64,000 nucleotides of DNA from a virus, in IMG/VR virus record IMGVR_UViG_3300020173_000008, positions 3,520 through 67,519 of that record; one strand, 5' to 3'. Both the position numbers and the translations under genes were made by a program. The number at the start of each line of letters is the position of its first letter. Within the stretch, counting starts at the first letter, position 1. This document shows, piece by piece, positions 17,782-32,713 of this stretch. Below the pieces are notes generated by a model. It was not told where the DNA came from and did not search any database. It saw nothing but the letters and a program-made list of their open reading frames with translations.

Positions 17782-18640
17782 AAAGTATATTTAATTTATC
17801 ACAAAGACTGTTCTTTGTCAAGTAACTTAGATTATTAAATTTGCCGTGTTGGTCTGTTAGAAAAAACTCTTCTTGACCAAAGCGGTCAACAGGATCAACC
17901 CAATAGAATTTAACATCCTTATACTCTGTAAAAACAGTTTGCATCTGGTTAATCCAGTTAACTGGATTAAATCCTTTTGCATCACTTGACAGATAATTAT
18001 CTGTCCCTTTATATATGTTGTTCAACGGCTCATCATATGACGATAGGTCAAACCCCACTATATAAACTTCATTCGCACCCTCTTGACAAGCAAGGTGTAG
18101 TGCGGTATTACCAGCAGACCACCCAACAGGGTAGTCAATACTATTTATTCCATCATCCTCTTTAACGTATGTAATCCAAATGCCAACGTCCTTCTCCATC
18201 TTTGCACGAAGGTCTTTCATGTTGAGGTCTGGATTCATCTTCATTGCAACCTCAATCTTCTCCTGTAATGTAACAGGGTCTTTACCTGAGATGACACATT
18301 GCTCTGTGTGGTTGCCCACCCTTTCTGTTTTGTGAATGAAAGACTCTGGTATGTCATATCCCATGAACATCATATCTGCGATCTCGGCGGGGACAGGACT
18401 CCAGTTTGTAAAGTGAAACCTCATCGTGTCACCTGTAGTGAACTGGCCCTCTAATAAATCAGAAGTGTAAATCTCTTGTTGCATGGGGTAGTCTACTGCG
18501 ACTAAATTATCCACCCACATATCACGATAGATTGCATTGCACCCCCAAGTAACTACGTCCTTATCATTTCTATCAAAAGTAGTAACATTCTCTGCCCACT
18601 TTCTAGACTCCCCGTTACCAAATACGACTGCTTTACTCAT
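17780..18640 (-). CDS. Hypothetical protein, DUF115/Maf-like glycosyltransferase-related fold
   Basis: VFGNGESR, GCNAIYRD, SAGNTALHLA, IVGFDL. Confidence 0.55.
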   Translation of the reverse strand: MSKAVVFGNGESRKWAENVTTFDRNDKDVVTWGCNAIYRDMWVDNLVAVDYPMQQEIYTSDLLEGQFTTGDTMRFHFTNWSPVPAEIADMMFMGYDIPESFIHKTERVGNHTEQCVISGKDPVTLQEKIEVAMKMNPDLNMKDLRAKMEKDVGIWITYVKEDDGINSIDYPVGWSAGNTALHLACQEGANEVYIVGFDLSSYDEPLNNIYKGTDNYLSSDAKGFNPVNWINQMQTVFTEYKDVKFYWVDPVDRFGQEEFFLTDQHGKFNNLSYLTKNSLCDKLNIL

Positions 18641-19298
18641 TCACAAATTCCTGTATCATGGGGAAGATGGGTGCAATTGCAACTGCACACTCTCTGGCAA
18701 TCTCCATGTGTTCTTTCTGCGTTCCATGACCACTGCGAAGCTCGATGAAATGCACCCATGAACGAAGAGTACCATTCATATACATGCGTGACATGGTAAG
18801 ACCCTCTGGTAGAACTGCACGAGCCTGTTCTTTTGCAATACCCTTACTGATTGCCCAGTTGTATGCAGAACGTGCGTCCTCAATCACCATCTCCTGTAGA
18901 GTGTCCCATTCCTCTTGTAGTTTGGGGTCGTCAATCTCTACACTATTCTGACGGTTCTTCTCGTCCTGTAGACGAGCTTCTCTGGTAACGAATTCCAAAT
19001 CCTTAGTCGGGTCTGCATAACGCTGACTGAACTCTTGAAAAGAGAACGAGCGGTGACGCAATACCTGTCGTCCAATATCTCGTGTTGTCTCAATCTCAAT
19101 ACACGCACTAACCATCTCTAGAGGTGACCAGTGCTTGTGTTTAATAAGATATCTAACCAATTTCTCGGCGGTATCTCTATTCAACTGATTAGAGGGATTA
19201 GATACACGGGCACAATATGCAATAAGGTCTTGTGCGGTATCTATACCAATGAACCCTTCTTTGGGTACTTGTGAATGTGATATAAGTTTTACTGTCAT
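18633..19298 (-). CDS. thyX: Flavin-dependent thymidylate synthase
   Basis: H.SPLE, RHRSFSFQEFSQRY, AKEQARAVLP; start set at MTVKLISH. Confidence 0.95.
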   Translation of the reverse strand: MTVKLISHSQVPKEGFIGIDTAQDLIAYCARVSNPSNQLNRDTAEKLVRYLIKHKHWSPLEMVSACIEIETTRDIGRQVLRHRSFSFQEFSQRYADPTKDLEFVTREARLQDEKNRQNSVEIDDPKLQEEWDTLQEMVIEDARSAYNWAISKGIAKEQARAVLPEGLTMSRMYMNGTLRSWVHFIELRSGHGTQKEHMEIARECAVAIAPIFPMIQEFVNE

Positions 19299-19326
19299 TG
19301 TTATTTCAATAATTCCTCGTTTAGAA

Positions 19327-19402
19327 TGGTGCCGCTGAGAAGATTCGAACTCCTGACCCATTGATTACAAATCAATTGCTCTACCAACTGAGCTACAGCG
19401 GC
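19327..19402 (-). tRNA. tRNA-Thr(UGU)
   Basis: 76-nt cloverleaf GCCGCTG...CAGCGGC-A-CCA, anticodon loop TT-TGT-AA. Confidence 0.95.
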
Positions 19403-21216: not shown

Positions 21217-21393
21217 TTACTCTCCCGCAAACTTTGCCATCTGACGTAGAGCAGCAGCCTCTTTGGGATACCCCTCACGTTCCATTTCAATTGCGGCACG
21301 AGTGTAACCATATGGTTGCATTTTTTTGAAAATACGATTGAACCAATCGCCAAGACCTGTTTCAAATGTTAGTGTGGAAACGATGAATGTCAT
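21217..21393 (-). CDS. Small hypothetical protein
   Basis: 58 aa, strong AAGGAG SD, directly downstream of the tmRNA. Confidence 0.6.
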   Translation of the reverse strand: MTFIVSTLTFETGLGDWFNRIFKKMQPYGYTRAAIEMEREGYPKEAAALRQMAKFAGE

Positions 21394-21420
21394 TTCTTTC
21401 TCCTTGTGTTTGTGTGTGTT

Positions 21421-21682
21421 GGTGGGTGATTCTGTTGCTAGGACACCCACCGAAACCCCGACACTTACTGCTTACGCAGCAAGGGCCATTGGTGCAAAAT
21501 TATCGTTTGCATTTACTATAGTGGTCTATACGCGACCAACCGTGTAACTCCGAATTCCTATTAACTGCCCGTCGATCCTAGTTCGCCCCCCTCAGAAACA
21601 CACTCAGTAAATGTGCTTGTGGTGGAGGCGGCGGGTACTGCCCCCGCGTCCAGTACAGCGTTGAGTCATCATCAACGTTACC
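21421..21682 (-). ncRNA. ssrA: Circularly permuted two-piece tmRNA (alphaproteobacterial type)
   Basis: Acceptor piece ends CGCCTCCACCA at 21620; 29-nt hairpin spacer; coding piece starts GGGGGCGAA at 21590 (G3:U70); tag ORF 21472-21510 ANDNFAPMALAA*; GCAACAGAA terminal hairpin; TTGACT promoter at 21711-21716. Confidence 0.92.
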
Positions 21683-22028
21683 TGTTATATATAACACTTT
21701 TTCCTTTGAGAGTCAAGGAACTTTTTGTCGCCTTATCCTTATTCACAAATTCCACATCTTTACCTGACCCAATAATACATGCATTACCATTTGCAAAAGA
21801 TTCAATGATGGTAATTCCAGTGTCTCCAACGTACATTAGATTGACAGTATTGTTATCGGGGTCAGACCAATACGCATATGGCTCTTCACCTAGATTTGTA
21901 ACTGCACCCAGAACAATGTTTAACGGCGCACAGAGAACTGGTTTCTGCGTTTGAAAGAAAGATGGTGGTTCCTGTGCAAAGGTTGATGTGCTAAGCAGCA
22001 GTGCTGTTAGGAATGTTAGATACTTCAT
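21678..22028 (-). CDS. Secreted hypothetical protein
   Basis: Signal peptide MKYLTFLTALLLSTSTFA, KPVLC ... ACIIGSG. Confidence 0.6.
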   Translation of the reverse strand: MKYLTFLTALLLSTSTFAQEPPSFFQTQKPVLCAPLNIVLGAVTNLGEEPYAYWSDPDNNTVNLMYVGDTGITIIESFANGNACIIGSGKDVEFVNKDKATKSSLTLKGKSVIYNR

Positions 22029-31503: not shown

Positions 31504-31824
31504 TCACCAGCCTGGTGCACCGTAGACTCTGTCTTTCCTATAAGCCACACTCCAGTCAAGTCCCATTGCAGGACAGATGAAAACGGTATCAGGTAATCCG
31601 TTATTATCTATCTCACCTGCCTCACCAGAGATAAAGAAATGACCTGACTTCTCTGGAAATGCCTTACATAGAATCTGGGTGATACGAATATCCTTTTCCC
31701 TTGCCTTTGCAAGATCAAGACATGCGTCACGCAACCACGCTTCCATAGTCGGGTCAATGTTCTTCTGATTGAGACATTGACGGATTAGGTATTCTGCGTT
31801 ATTGATGAAATCCTGTGTGTTCAT
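31504..31824 (-). CDS. Hypothetical protein
   Basis: 106 aa; FFISGEAG..D.NGLP...ICPA.G.D. Confidence 0.6.
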   Translation of the reverse strand: MNTQDFINNAEYLIRQCLNQKNIDPTMEAWLRDACLDLAKAREKDIRITQILCKAFPEKSGHFFISGEAGEIDNNGLPDTVFICPAMGLDWSVAYRKDRVYGAPGW

Positions 31825-31833
31825 TATTCAACC

Positions 31834-32013
31834 TCACTCATCTACTTCTCGCTCCCAAAAACGACAATAAAAATGATCACCGCATGAATCTATTTCATGC
31901 TGTGGATAACCATTCTCAACAAGCCATTTCTCTGTATCCTTGATACCTTCTGGCAATTCTTTTGGAAATCCATACTTCCAACCAGAAGGTGGATCAATAA
32001 TTAAAATCTTCAT
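31834..32013 (-). CDS. Small conserved hypothetical protein (59 aa, not in the ORF track)
   Basis: MKILIIDPPSGWKYGFPK...WLVENGYP. Confidence 0.65.
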   Translation of the reverse strand: MKILIIDPPSGWKYGFPKELPEGIKDTEKWLVENGYPQHEIDSCGDHFYCRFWEREVDE

Positions 32014-32450
32014 CCTCGCCTCATCTTTGCAACTTCTTCAGCAGACTTCTTGTTACGAATCGGCACTGCATTGGATTTATGCATCTGGGCAATACCGATA
32101 ATCTCTGTGCCGGTATAGACCTTCTCTTCTTTCTTTGCCATCGTAGGATTGTAGAATTGGTCGGAGCGAGAGGATTCGAACCTCTGATCTCCACATCCCA
32201 AATGTGGCGGATTACCAGACTTTCCTACGCTCCGTTTGTTGGCGCTCTCGACAGGACTCGAACCTGTGACCCACGGTTTAGAAGACCGTTGCTCTATTCC
32301 AGCTGAGCTACGAGAGCCTACCCCCATGCGTTTGAGGAACTTCTCATGTTCCTTCTCTGACGCAATTAGGGACTTAGATTTCTTGGATTTCTTACGCTTC
32401 TTCGTATTCGTAGTCGAATAGTAAGAAGGCAATAGATGCATTCCACTCAT
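32010..32450 (-). CDS. Conserved basic phage protein whose central part is encoded by two tRNA genes
   Basis: N-block MHLLPSYYSTTN..EHEKFLKRMGV and C-block VYTGT.IIGIA.MHKSNAVP joined in one open frame; TTGACA-N17-TATTGT promoter at 32458-32486. Confidence 0.7.
   Translation of the reverse strand: MSGMHLLPSYYSTTNTKKRKKSKKSKSLIASEKEHEKFLKRMGVGSRSSAGIEQRSSKPWVTGSSPVESANKRSVGKSGNPPHLGCGDQRFESSRSDQFYNPTMAKKEEKVYTGTEIIGIAQMHKSNAVPIRNKKSAEEVAKMRRG
32158..32234 (-). tRNA. tRNA-Pro(UGG)
   Basis: 77-nt cloverleaf CGGAGCG...CGCTCCG-A-CCA, anticodon TGG. Confidence 0.92.
32240..32317 (-). tRNA. tRNA-Arg(UCU)
   Basis: 78-nt cloverleaf GCTCTCG...CGAGAGC-G-CCA, anticodon TCT. Confidence 0.93.
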
Positions 32451-32482
32451 ATGAATAACAATATACTAGTTGGAGGGATTTG

Positions 32483-32713
32483 TCAAGATACTTTGTTAGT
32501 CTCGTTAACACTCTTAGCAATGATGTCAGAAATTAGGATAAGTTCCTTCTCACCATTCTCATCAGTCTTGGTCCAAATGTAACCTTCCTTCTCTAAATTA
32601 GAGAGTAGGGCTTCAATCACATCAGTCAAGTCGTTGCGTGTTGACCAGCGACCAGCATAGTATGCTCCAGCAATACATGCAACTGCGATTAGTGTGTGAG
32701 TTAGTACGTCCAT
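32483..32713 (-). CDS. Small membrane-anchored hypothetical protein
   Basis: N-terminal TM segment, GAGG SD. Confidence 0.6.
   Translation of the reverse strand: MDVLTHTLIAVACIAGAYYAGRWSTRNDLTDVIEALLSNLEKEGYIWTKTDENGEKELILISDIIAKSVNETNKVS

What the first reader, a model, noticed from the sequence alone, without database searches (positions are those of the whole stretch)
32010..32450. Two intact tRNA genes read in frame inside a protein-coding gene on the same strand
Seen: tRNA-Arg(UCU) 32240-32317 and tRNA-Pro(UGG) 32158-32234, both with encoded CCA, make up the middle 160 nt of a 146-codon ORF. The other two same-strand frames contain stops inside the tRNAs. The Arg D-loop reads GGAATAGAGC, one A longer than the usual GGATAGAGC of tRNA-Arg(UCU). 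Without that A this frame would read GCT GGA TAG (stop). From memory, the flanking blocks (MHLLP.YY.TTN...EHEK.L..MGV and VYTGT.I.GIA.MHKSNAVP) are the two ends of one conserved T4-like phage protein with a variable linker. Inference: the tRNAs sit in the linker and the frame has been kept open. Each transcript would then yield either protein or tRNAs, so RNase P processing or host anticodon nucleases could switch the protein off.
Basis: partly seen in the sequence, partly recalled or inferred. Interest (0 to 1): 0.82.

Follow-up and report, generated by a model that had tools for sequence, protein, structure and literature searches.

The report
tRNA genes nested in-frame in phage gene
Two working-looking tRNA genes lie inside the floppy middle of a small conserved marine-phage protein gene and are read through in frame, and nearly a hundred related phage sequences keep one to three interchangeable tRNAs at that spot without ever closing the frame, so the same DNA appears to be kept both as tRNA and as protein code.

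Summary
Observation confirmed. The ORF 32010-32450 (-), 146 aa, contains tRNA-Arg(UCU) and tRNA-Pro(UGG) on the same strand, and each is stop-free only at the offset actually used.

The flanks are the two ends of one phage protein family (PHROG 27048, function unknown). In cultured and uncultured relatives it is a single 110-175 aa ORF with no tRNA.

Loci were anchored on the C-block or the N-block, independently of ORF calls. They gave 97 unique tRNA-bearing loci with 140 tRNA genes in 16 arrangements (Arg, Pro, Ala, Thr, Met, Trp, Leu, two long-arm types). None has a stop before or inside a tRNA. In 96 the frame runs from N-block to C domain. An ordinary phage tRNA is open at a given offset with probability 0.316.

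Both flanks are under purifying selection (dN/dS 0.16-0.18). The tRNAs show compensatory stem changes.

How tRNA and protein are both made from the transcript is inferred, not shown.

The idea has a published precedent: selC nested in selB (Mukai 2021). This scan has already noted the phenomenon, and this gene family, on other DNA. The cultured phage Melnitz has the layout.

Verdict: real; a new variant of a known kind.

The parts
32458..32486 (-). Sigma-70-like promoter: TTGACA, 17 nt, TATTGT. It ends 7 nt before the ORF's first ATG, so the mRNA would have almost no leader.
   Evidence: Consensus scan, 10 of 12 matches. A pattern of this kind is present upstream in 28 of 51 tRNA-bearing loci. 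A consensus match only; no transcript start is shown.
32010..32450 (-). The whole 146-codon ORF: N-block, tRNA-Arg, 5-nt spacer, tRNA-Pro, C part, TGA.
   Evidence: PHROG 27048 matches aa 4-145 to profile positions 3-127 of 127, E 8.2e-16.
32318..32450 (-). N-block, aa 1-44: MSGMHLLPSYYSTTNTKKRKK...EHEKFLKRMGV. Basic, with a predicted helix at aa 26-41.
   Evidence: Conserved in tRNA-bearing and tRNA-free relatives. dN/dS 0.18; nucleotide diversity by codon position 0.28/0.20/0.54. AF2 pLDDT about 90 over the helix.
32240..32317 (-). tRNA-Arg(UCU), 78 nt with encoded CCA, read as aa 45-70/71 (GSRSSAGIEQRSSKPWVTGSSPVESAN).
   Evidence: ARAGORN; Rfam 68.6 bits. 7 of 21 cloverleaf pairs show compensatory changes among 21 variants. 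The D-loop is one base longer than in the nearest background Arg(UCU) genes.
32235..32239 (-). 5-nt spacer between the tRNAs that sets tRNA-Pro to its only open offset.
   Evidence: Spacers in relatives are 4, 5, 6, 7 or 22 nt, and each restores the frame.
32158..32234 (-). tRNA-Pro(UGG), 77 nt with encoded CCA, read as aa 73-98 (RSVGKSGNPPHLGCGDQRFESSRSDQ).
   Evidence: ARAGORN; Rfam 65.7 bits. 14 of 22 pairs show compensatory changes among 18 variants.
32013..32157 (-). C part, aa 99-146: FYNPT, then MAKKEEKVYTGTEIIGIAQMHKSNAVPIRNKKSAEEVAKMRRG. Predicted beta-hairpin plus helix. The internal ATG is at 32139-32141.
   Evidence: PHROG 27048 profile positions 87-127, E 1.8e-14 for the 43-aa block alone. 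dN/dS 0.16. AF2 pLDDT about 80-87. Met at this column in 36 of 46 tRNA-bearing rows and 7 of 100 tRNA-free rows.
32010..32013 (-). ATGA overlap: the ORF's TGA stop overlaps the ATG of the next ORF (31834-32013, 59 aa), the usual layout for translational coupling.
   Evidence: Read from the sequence and the ORF list.

Best explanation
This stretch of DNA is dual-use. A small conserved protein of Melnitz-like and T4-like marine myophages (PHROG 27048, function unknown) has a basic N-terminal helix block, a tolerant and probably disordered linker, and a small C-terminal domain. In one clade the linker has become the phage's tRNA locus. It holds one to three genuine tRNA genes on the sense strand, always placed so that the protein's frame runs through them without a stop.

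Shown here:
- Both flanks evolve as protein-coding sequence.
- The inserts evolve as tRNAs, with compensatory stem changes.
- The frame is open in every tRNA-bearing relative examined, through at least 13 changes of tRNA content.
- A tRNA that has decayed stays in frame as linker.

Inferred:
- The gene is transcribed, in the window from its own sigma-70-like promoter, into one RNA that is both mRNA and pre-tRNA.
- Ribosomes that translate it before it folds or is cut make the full-length protein, with the tRNA sequence read as a Ser/Gly/Pro/Arg-rich linker, and then couple into the next gene through the ATGA overlap.
- RNase P and the 3'-end nucleases cut the tRNAs out of the same transcripts, which ends that mRNA's use for full-length protein.
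- tRNA cassettes are exchanged by recombination. Only in-frame, stop-free arrangements survive, because the protein needs both ends in one chain.
For: 1. One protein with a variable linker. PHROG 27048 matches end to end. Four cultured phages and 122 of 188 unique C-anchored loci have single tRNA-free ORFs with both blocks.
2. Frame kept open. Among C-block-anchored loci, ranked without reference to the tRNA region, 55 of 55 tRNA-bearing loci have all tRNAs inside the open frame. Among N-block-anchored loci, 59 of 59 tRNA-bearing loci read through every tRNA. The union count is 97 unique loci, 140 tRNAs and 16 arrangements; 0 have a stop before or inside a tRNA and 96 run on to a C domain.
3. 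Null expectation. P(open at a given offset) is 0.316 over 79 background phage tRNAs, and 21 of those 79 have no open offset. The unused offsets of embedded tRNAs are open in 24 of 126 cases. 0.316 to the power 10 is about 1e-5 for the ten tRNA kinds alone.
4. Adaptation of the tRNA to the frame. All 21 embedded tRNA-Arg variants carry one extra D-loop base, read as ATA, TTA, ACA, TCA or GTA. The shorter usual form would read TAG.
5. Spacers of 4, 5, 6, 7 and 22 nt each restore the frame.
6. Protein-level selection on both flanks: dN/dS 0.18 for the N-block and 0.16 for the C part, with third-position diversity about twice that of positions 1 and 2.
7. tRNA-level selection: 14 of 22 pairs (Pro) and 7 of 21 pairs (Arg) show compensatory changes. 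Rfam scores for embedded tRNAs in relatives are 52-71 bits.
8. These are most of the phage's tRNAs: 2 of 3 in G000, 2 of 2 in G001.
9. Turnover with the frame retained. There are 24 changes of arrangement on the tree, 13 being the least possible. In L027 a decayed tRNA-Pro is still read in frame. Remnants appear in L205, L029 and L114.
10. No independent route to the C domain in some lineages: 7 of 55 loci have no ATG, GTG or TTG between the last tRNA and the C block.
11. AF2 gives confident N helix and C domain, with low confidence (block means 46-60) over the tRNA-coded part.
12. RNA-library contigs bridge the whole ORF including both tRNAs (X2 record 11, 31700-32488). This is weak support.
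Against: - No direct evidence of translation across the tRNAs or of mature tRNAs. The metatranscriptome data are assembled contigs, DNA carry-over is not excluded, and they cannot show ends or levels.
- 44 of 55 loci have an in-frame ATG just after the last tRNA. Met at that column is enriched in tRNA-bearing rows (36 of 46 against 7 of 100). This fits independent translation of the C domain from processed RNA, although the tRNA-bearing genes are nearly one clade, so it may be one inherited change.
- Four database proteins (P0151, P0156, P0158, P0161; all ENA) look frame-shifted near the tRNA/C-block junction.
- L316 has the C block displaced by an insertion of about 430 nt.
- The loci are the best 80 of at least 591, 591 and 266 confirmed candidates per scan, not an exhaustive set. 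Many are close relatives, so counts of loci overstate independent events.
- The tree is poorly resolved: 120 columns, and 60 of 143 inner branches drawn open.
- The protein's function is unknown: no Pfam hit, no PDB hit, no atlas lead.
Confidence: 0.8

Rival explanations
1. Split gene. tRNA insertion broke the gene into two separately made products. The N peptide is dispensable or is made only until the RNA is cut. The C domain (43 aa) is translated on its own from the internal ATG on the 3' processing fragment, and the open frame through the tRNAs plays no part in making a protein.
For: An in-frame ATG follows the last tRNA in 44 of 55 loci. Met at that column occurs in 36 of 46 tRNA-bearing rows against 7 of 100 tRNA-free rows. 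JGI pipelines call the 43-aa form. Mukai 2021 proposes that processing of a nested tRNA leaves a leaderless mRNA for the downstream reading frame.
Against: It predicts stops in about two thirds of tRNA/offset combinations and the N and C blocks in the same frame only one third of the time. Observed: 0 of 97 loci with a stop and 96 of 97 in frame. The N-block has no stop of its own in any locus, yet it is under purifying selection as protein (dN/dS 0.18). 7 of 55 loci have no start codon for the C domain. No Shine-Dalgarno-like sequence precedes the window's internal ATG (read).
Confidence: 0.06
2. Ribosome-transit model. The frame is kept open so that ribosomes loaded at the N-block can run on to the ATGA junction and couple into downstream genes (or avoid polarity or premature release), not because the fused protein is needed. 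The fusion protein is a tolerated by-product.
For: The ORF's stop overlaps the next ORF's start (ATGA). Mukai 2021 notes the same overlap for selB and suggests the tRNA-coded extension may serve translational coupling. The gene often heads its own transcription unit (promoter-like pattern in 28 of 51 loci).
Against: The N and C blocks form one protein in tRNA-free relatives across distant phages. Both are under purifying selection in tRNA-bearing loci. The C domain is always in the same frame as the N-block (96 of 97), which transit alone would not require. Conservation of the ATGA overlap among relatives was not measured.
Confidence: 0.07
3. Protein only. The tRNA-like inserts are captured or decaying tRNA sequences that now serve only as linker codons and are never matured into working tRNAs.
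For: Decayed tRNAs do persist as in-frame linker (L027, L205, L029, L114). One long-arm type (L181, L234) is not reported by Rfam at the gathering score.
Against: The intact ones score 52-71 bits against a threshold of 29. They keep the encoded CCA and canonical loops. They show compensatory stem changes with almost no broken pairs, which linker codons would not preserve. They make up most or all of the tRNAs of these phages.
Confidence: 0.04
4. Artefact. The long ORF is a chance open frame over intergenic tRNAs, and its apparent conservation reflects gene callers and databases that list only open frames.
For: The 1,830 database proteins are indeed ascertained on being open. Such over-extension does occur in this window: the thyX-like ORF call overlaps the 3' end of tRNA-Thr.
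Against: The DNA-level sets were collected without regard to ORFs and from either flank. The flanks have tRNA-free full-length homologues. The background null is 0.316 per tRNA.
Confidence: 0.01

Closest known systems
selC (tRNA-Sec) nested inside the selB ORF of Alphaproteobacteria (Mukai 2021, Int J Mol Sci 22:4605, PMC8124441; abstract and Results read)
   Same: A complete tRNA gene on the sense strand inside a protein ORF and read in frame. The trait is conserved among relatives. The ORF's stop overlaps the next ORF's start. Remnant tRNAs persist as coding sequence. The proposed logic is the same: tRNA processing yields a non-stop mRNA, so protein and tRNA are alternative outputs. That work is also purely bioinformatic.
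   Different: In selB there is one fixed tRNA, functionally tied to its host protein (SelB binds tRNA-Sec). It lies at the 3' end, so its translation is only a C-terminal extension, and some lineages simply place a stop before it. Here there are one to three tRNAs of at least nine interchangeable kinds. They lie between two conserved protein blocks, so read-through is needed to make the protein, and no lineage examined has a stop. This is a phage gene. No link between the protein and tRNA biology is known.
Ordinary phage tRNA clusters (T4-like and T5-like phages)
   Same: The same tRNA kinds, encoded CCA, short spacers between tRNAs, and co-transcription with neighbouring small ORFs. In some tRNA-free relatives of this gene a tRNA array lies about 1 kb downstream (L040-L042).
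   Different: In ordinary clusters the tRNAs are intergenic, as annotated in L265-L267. 21 of 79 such tRNAs have no stop-free frame at all.
tmRNA and other dual-function RNAs, meaning RNAs that are both structured RNA and mRNA (recalled general knowledge, not from a call)
   Same: One transcript carries both a tRNA-type function and a translated reading frame.
   Different: In tmRNA the tRNA-like and mRNA-like parts are separate segments. Here the same nucleotides are both tRNA and codons.
Inteins and self-splicing introns as in-frame or frame-neutral insertions in phage genes
   Same: A foreign element is tolerated inside an essential-looking gene because the host product can still be made.
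   Different: There is no removal step that restores the frame. Excised length is a multiple of 3 in only 18 of 55 loci (tRNAs alone) or 21 of 55 (whole block). The insert is translated, not spliced out.

Membership tests
PHROG 27048 (phage protein of unknown function) | Significant match to the family profile over its whole length | tested here: met
   E 8.2e-16; aa 4-145 match profile positions 3-127 of 127. The C block alone gives E 1.8e-14. The N block alone gives no hit.
PHROG 27048 (phage protein of unknown function) | Shared architecture with tRNA-free members: N-terminal M.MHL.P/GP..TTT..KKRK block, a YPS-type motif, and a C-terminal YTG...G[IQ]A..HKSN/YNKG...RR block in one ORF | tested here: met
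   Alignments A1 and A3 and the translations.
tRNA (Rfam RF00005) | Score above the curated gathering threshold and a full cloverleaf | tested here: met
   68.6 and 65.7 bits against 29; ARAGORN.
tRNA (Rfam RF00005) | Stems maintained by compensatory substitutions among relatives | tested here: met
   Pro: 14 of 22 pairs. Arg: 7 of 21 pairs.
tRNA (Rfam RF00005) | Matured and aminoacylated in infected cells | not testable with these tools
   Only assembled RNA-library contigs were available.
[quoted passage not shown] | Entire tRNA on the sense strand within the ORF, read without a stop | tested here: met
[quoted passage not shown] | Nesting conserved among relatives | tested here: met
   97 of 97 loci have no stop before or inside a tRNA.
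[quoted passage not shown] | The ORF's stop overlaps the start of the next ORF | tested here: met
   ATGA at 32013-32010 in the window. Not measured in relatives.
[quoted passage not shown] | The tRNA forms a C-terminal extension of the host protein and is functionally tied to it | tested here: not met
   The tRNAs lie between two conserved blocks. tRNA identity varies over at least nine kinds. The protein's function is unknown.
Intein- or intron-like insertion removed to restore the frame | Excision of the insert leaves the flanks in frame | tested here: not met
   Removed length is a multiple of 3 in 18 of 55 loci (tRNAs alone) or 21 of 55 (whole block), as expected by chance.

The most novel reading that the evidence does not exclude
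The gene is a dedicated tRNA docking site and an expression switch. Its leader-poor transcript is partitioned between ribosomes, which make full-length protein, and RNase P and the 3' nucleases, which release tRNAs and leave a non-stop N fragment and a short-leader C fragment with its own AUG. The ratio of protein to tRNA would then report the state of the host's translation and RNA-processing machinery during infection. The phage's own two-piece tmRNA would clear ribosomes stalled on the non-stop fragments. tRNA cassettes would be swapped in and out by recombination as hosts change. If so, nested tRNAs plus a phage tmRNA form one functional module in Melnitz-like and pelagimyophage-like phages.
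Probability: 0.2. Interest if true: 0.88.

Novelty: new variant of a known kind. Interest (0 to 1): 0.78.

Why it matters
It would show that the same bases can be held under two unrelated constraints, a tRNA cloverleaf and an open reading frame between two functional protein blocks, across many lineages and many exchanges of tRNA.

Practical and biological consequences:
- Phage annotation: pipelines that mask tRNAs truncate this gene to 43 aa, while others hide the tRNAs under a "hypothetical protein".
- tRNA-based host prediction is affected.
- How phages acquire and exchange tRNAs.
- How mRNA translation and tRNA processing compete on one transcript.

The published precedent (selB/selC) is a C-terminal extension that can be lost. 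Here read-through is needed to join two conserved halves, so this is a much stronger test case. A cultured phage-host pair (Melnitz on OM43 strain H5P1) makes it directly testable.

Tried and rejected
- Excision and religation ("RNA splicing" by RNase P/Z plus a phage RNA ligase): rejected. Removal keeps the frame in only 18 of 55 or 21 of 55 loci.
- Chance open frame or database ascertainment: rejected by the DNA-level sets and the background null.
- Function of the protein: Pfam gave nothing significant for 7 proteins. A PDB profile search gave 0 hits at E up to 1. The ESM Atlas best score was 0.79, with no named family. AF2 pTM was 0.24, so no fold search was run.
- Neighbour-gene anchor (the 218-aa ORF): only 11 loci, too few to use.
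- Metatranscriptome contigs: they bridge the ORF but cannot show transcription, ends or processing. A contig that starts at 32240 coincides with loose ends from relatives with other neighbours, so it is not evidence of processing. Parts without cover are not interpreted.
- Literature: seven searches found no report of in-frame tRNAs in a phage protein gene. The searches cover only the held open-access library. Only listings and abstract starts were seen, except for Mukai 2021 (abstract and Results) and the Melnitz paper (passages around tRNA, tmRNA and overlap; "nested" occurs 0 times).
- First union script: it flagged L189 as "stop before tRNA". This was a chance motif match in another frame. 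It was corrected, where the longest frame was taken if several motif matches existed. One search had already shown L189 open.
- My automatic C-block probe missed a variant C domain in 11 of 63 N-anchored loci. Reading them by eye showed intact ORFs, except L316.
- tmRNA co-occurrence: 4 of 4 phages with nested tRNAs against 0 of 1 without. This is too few and phylogenetically confounded, so it is kept only as a lead.
Full report
OBSERVATION. The window is 64 kb of a 67.5-kb IMG/VR virus record, estimated 44% complete. On the minus strand, ORF 32010-32450 (146 aa) contains tRNA-Arg(UCU) at 32240-32317 and tRNA-Pro(UGG) at 32158-32234 (ARAGORN). Rfam's tRNA model scores them 68.6 and 65.7 bits against a threshold of 29. 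Each tRNA is stop-free at only one of its three sense offsets, and that is the offset the ORF uses. The frame reads GCT GGA ATA GAG, and one A fewer would give GGA TAG. All 21 embedded tRNA-Arg variants in relatives have this longer D-loop, read as ATA, TTA, ACA, TCA or GTA. None of four background tRNA-Arg(UCU) genes (75-77 nt) is open at that offset.

WHAT THE FLANKS ARE. PHROG 27048 (unknown function, 127 positions) matches the ORF end to end (aa 4-145, E 8e-16). Delftia phage PhiW-14 gp114, Acidovorax phage ACP17, phage C48C1 and Synechococcus phage BUCT-ZZ01 each have one ORF of 111-135 aa with a basic N block and the YTGT..KGI..MHKSNAVP...MRR C block, and no tRNA lies inside it. The wider uncultured family shares an N-terminal M.MHL.(G)P..TTT..KKRK motif, a YPS-type motif and the C block. 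AF2 on a 146-sequence alignment gives a confident N helix (aa 26-41), a confident C-terminal hairpin plus helix (aa 119-145), and low confidence with almost no secondary structure over the tRNA-coded residues 45-98 (pLDDT 71, pTM 0.24).

IS THE OPEN FRAME MORE THAN CHANCE? The protein database holds 1,830 matching proteins of 80-256 aa, but that set is ascertained on being open. I therefore collected DNA loci independently of ORFs.
- Anchored on the 43-aa C block alone, in IMG/VR and in metagenome contigs (best 80 of at least 591 confirmed in each) plus an earlier whole-ORF set: 188 unique loci. 122 have no tRNA, 11 lie at a contig edge, and 55 have one to three tRNAs just upstream. In 55 of 55, every tRNA lies inside the stop-free frame of the C block.
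- Anchored on the N block (best 80 of 266): 63 unique loci, 51 of them new. In 51 the frame runs through the tRNAs into the canonical C block. Eleven have a variant C domain (YTG..VIGQAYNKG..VLS..GKRR, or ..APAYNKG..); seven of those carry tRNAs in frame and four have none. One, L316, has an insertion of about 430 nt that displaces the C block, although its tRNA-Arg is still read through.
- A single motif-based recount over everything, including the window and Melnitz: 97 unique tRNA-bearing loci, 140 tRNA genes and 16 arrangements. None has a stop before or inside a tRNA, and 96 run from the N motif to a C-domain motif.

The null comes from 79 ordinary phage tRNAs: three cultured-phage clusters, non-embedded tRNAs in my loci, and the window's own intergenic tRNA-Thr. 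Of these, 21 have no open offset, and the chance that a given offset is open is 0.316. The unused offsets of the embedded tRNAs are open in only 24 of 126 cases, so stops come and go freely except in the frame that is used. Spacers of 4, 5, 6, 7 or 22 nt each restore the frame.

BOTH CONSTRAINTS ACT. In tRNA-bearing loci the N block (51 sequences, 40 codons) has dN/dS 0.18 and diversity by codon position of 0.28/0.20/0.54. The C part (48 codons) has dN/dS 0.16 and diversity 0.23/0.15/0.48. The N block is therefore translated, and it never has a stop of its own. The tRNAs evolve as tRNAs: 14 of 22 (Pro) and 7 of 21 (Arg) cloverleaf pairs show double compensatory changes, with almost no broken pairs. 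These are also most of the tRNAs these phages have: 2 of 3 in G000, 2 of 2 in G001, and 1 of 2 above the cut-off in G002.

HISTORY. On a poorly resolved tree of the flanks, the tRNA-bearing genes fall almost entirely in one clade (48 rows, SH-aLRT 89). tRNA content changes 24 times on that tree, 13 being the least possible. tRNAs also decay in place. L027 is the closest tRNA-free relative. Where L201 has an intact tRNA-Pro, L027 has a sequence that ARAGORN no longer calls a tRNA, and it is still in frame. L205, L029/L193, L114 and L034 carry in-frame remnants of Arg, Pro or Ala tRNAs. In some tRNA-free relatives a tRNA array lies about 1 kb downstream (L040-L042). In two variant-domain loci a tRNA-Arg follows the stop codon directly (L342, 7 nt) or after about 260 nt (L329). 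The gene therefore lives next to the tRNA region, which suggests where the cassettes came from.

HOW IT LIKELY WORKS. A sigma-70-like promoter (TTGACA, 17 nt, TATTGT, at 32486-32458) ends 7 nt before the first ATG. A promoter pattern of this kind is present in 28 of 51 relatives. The stop codon overlaps the next gene's ATG (ATGA).

I infer one transcript that is both mRNA and pre-tRNA. Ribosomes that pass before folding or cleavage make the full-length protein and couple into the next gene, and RNase P and the 3' nucleases then or otherwise release the tRNAs. This is the logic Mukai proposed for selB/selC.

Removal of the tRNAs followed by ligation cannot be the route to the protein, because excised lengths are multiples of three only at the chance rate (18 of 55 and 21 of 55).

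One result tempers the simple either/or picture. An in-frame ATG follows the last tRNA in 44 of 55 loci, and Met at that column is much more common in tRNA-bearing rows than in tRNA-free rows (36 of 46 against 7 of 100). The 3' processing fragment might therefore still give the 43-aa C domain. However, 7 of 55 loci have no start codon there, and the association may be a single clade-level change.

RNA-library contigs from salt-marsh metatranscriptomes bridge the whole ORF (X2, 31700-32488) or large parts of it (X1, X4). DNA carry-over cannot be excluded, and contigs cannot show ends.

COUNTER-EXAMPLES SOUGHT. A search for short proteins found 38 of 30-79 aa.
- Many are 43-aa or 48-aa JGI calls that start at or near the internal Met, as expected if tRNAs are masked before gene calling (this explanation is my inference).
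- P0124 matches L177 in 62 of 63 residues, and the frame is open in L177.
- P0140 is an in-frame deletion form without a tRNA.
- P0145 joins a signal-peptide-like N-terminus to the C block.
- P0151, P0156, P0158 and P0161 (all ENA) look frame-shifted near the junction and may be indel errors.

WHAT IS KNOWN. Seven literature searches found no report of this in phages.

Earlier notes of this scan showed that the phenomenon, and very probably this same gene family, had already been noted on other DNA. They pointed me to Mukai 2021, which I then read (abstract and Results). [quoted passage not shown] It also reports remnant tRNAs and a stop/start overlap. That lowers the novelty class.

The present case differs in four ways: the tRNAs lie between two conserved protein blocks, there are several of them and they are interchangeable, no lineage examined has closed the frame, and the host gene is viral.

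A lead from the same notes proved right. The cultured Methylophilales phage Melnitz has the gene (gene _124, 147 aa, variant C domain) with tRNA-Trp in frame. The Melnitz paper lists four tRNAs and a two-piece tmRNA. In the passages I read it does not mention nesting.

VERDICT. The main interpretation is supported, and the regulatory corollary is untested. It is a new variant of a known kind (a nested tRNA in a protein ORF), it has strong comparative evidence, and it can be tested at the bench in a cultured system.

Noticed in passing
L033:2646-2741, L177:273-368, L178:1304-1399, L187:1307-1399 (type A); L181:904-995, L234:283-374 (type B): The 92-96 nt tRNAs that ARAGORN calls Ile(tat) have a long variable arm (type II, normally Leu, Ser or Tyr), a UAU anticodon and discriminator A. 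Such a tRNA might read AUA as something other than Ile. Rfam does not report type B at the gathering score.
   Followed up: partly
window 21381-21714 (-); G001, G002 and Melnitz: All four phages with nested tRNAs that could be searched carry an alpha-type two-piece tmRNA. The one complete phage with a tRNA-free version of the gene (G003, 172 kb) has none. Processing of a nested tRNA would create non-stop mRNA, so the two features might be linked. The sample is tiny and confounded by ancestry. The Melnitz paper reports permuted tmRNA in 17 of 47 Melnitz-like contigs.
   Followed up: partly
window 19327-19402 (-): The window's third tRNA, Thr(UGU), lies between genes in the ordinary way. The thyX-like ORF call 18633-19361 overlaps its 3' end by 35 nt, which is probably an over-extended start. 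Its sequence resembles the Thr tRNAs nested in relatives and, like them, is open at offset 0.
   Followed up: partly
L290, L297, L301, L326, L329, L333, L334, L337, L342, L344, L347; Melnitz L348:1201-1644: A second form of the family has the same N block but a different C domain (YTG..VIGQAYNKG..VLS..GKRR, or ..APAYNKG..). It occurs with or without nested tRNAs, and the cultured Melnitz phages carry it.
   Followed up: partly
L316:1186-2065: The only disrupted copy found. An insertion of about 430 nt follows ...YNSS. The ORF runs 37 codons into it and stops, and a partial C block lies downstream out of frame. What the insert is was not examined.
   Followed up: no
L342:1573-1649 and L329:1821-1898: In two tRNA-free variant-domain genes a tRNA-Arg(UCU) sits just after the stop codon (7 nt and about 260 nt). 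The L342 copy is 77 nt and not open in the gene's frame. This may be the state before nesting.
   Followed up: no
Melnitz MZ577097.1, locus tags _124 to _126 (L348): Locus tag _125 is skipped between CDS _124 and _126, just where tRNA-Trp lies inside CDS _124. The feature table shown lists no tRNA there.
   Followed up: no
protein P0145 (76 aa, contig 1,152 nt): A signal-peptide-like N-terminus is joined directly to the canonical C block, with neither N block nor tRNA. It could be a recombinant form or a chimeric contig.
   Followed up: no
The Melnitz paper's introduction mentions a phage-encoded protein proposed as a gated secretin or pinholin. Together with the tmRNA and this gene, that places the window among Melnitz-like and pelagimyophage-like phages. 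I did not examine those genes myself.
   Followed up: no
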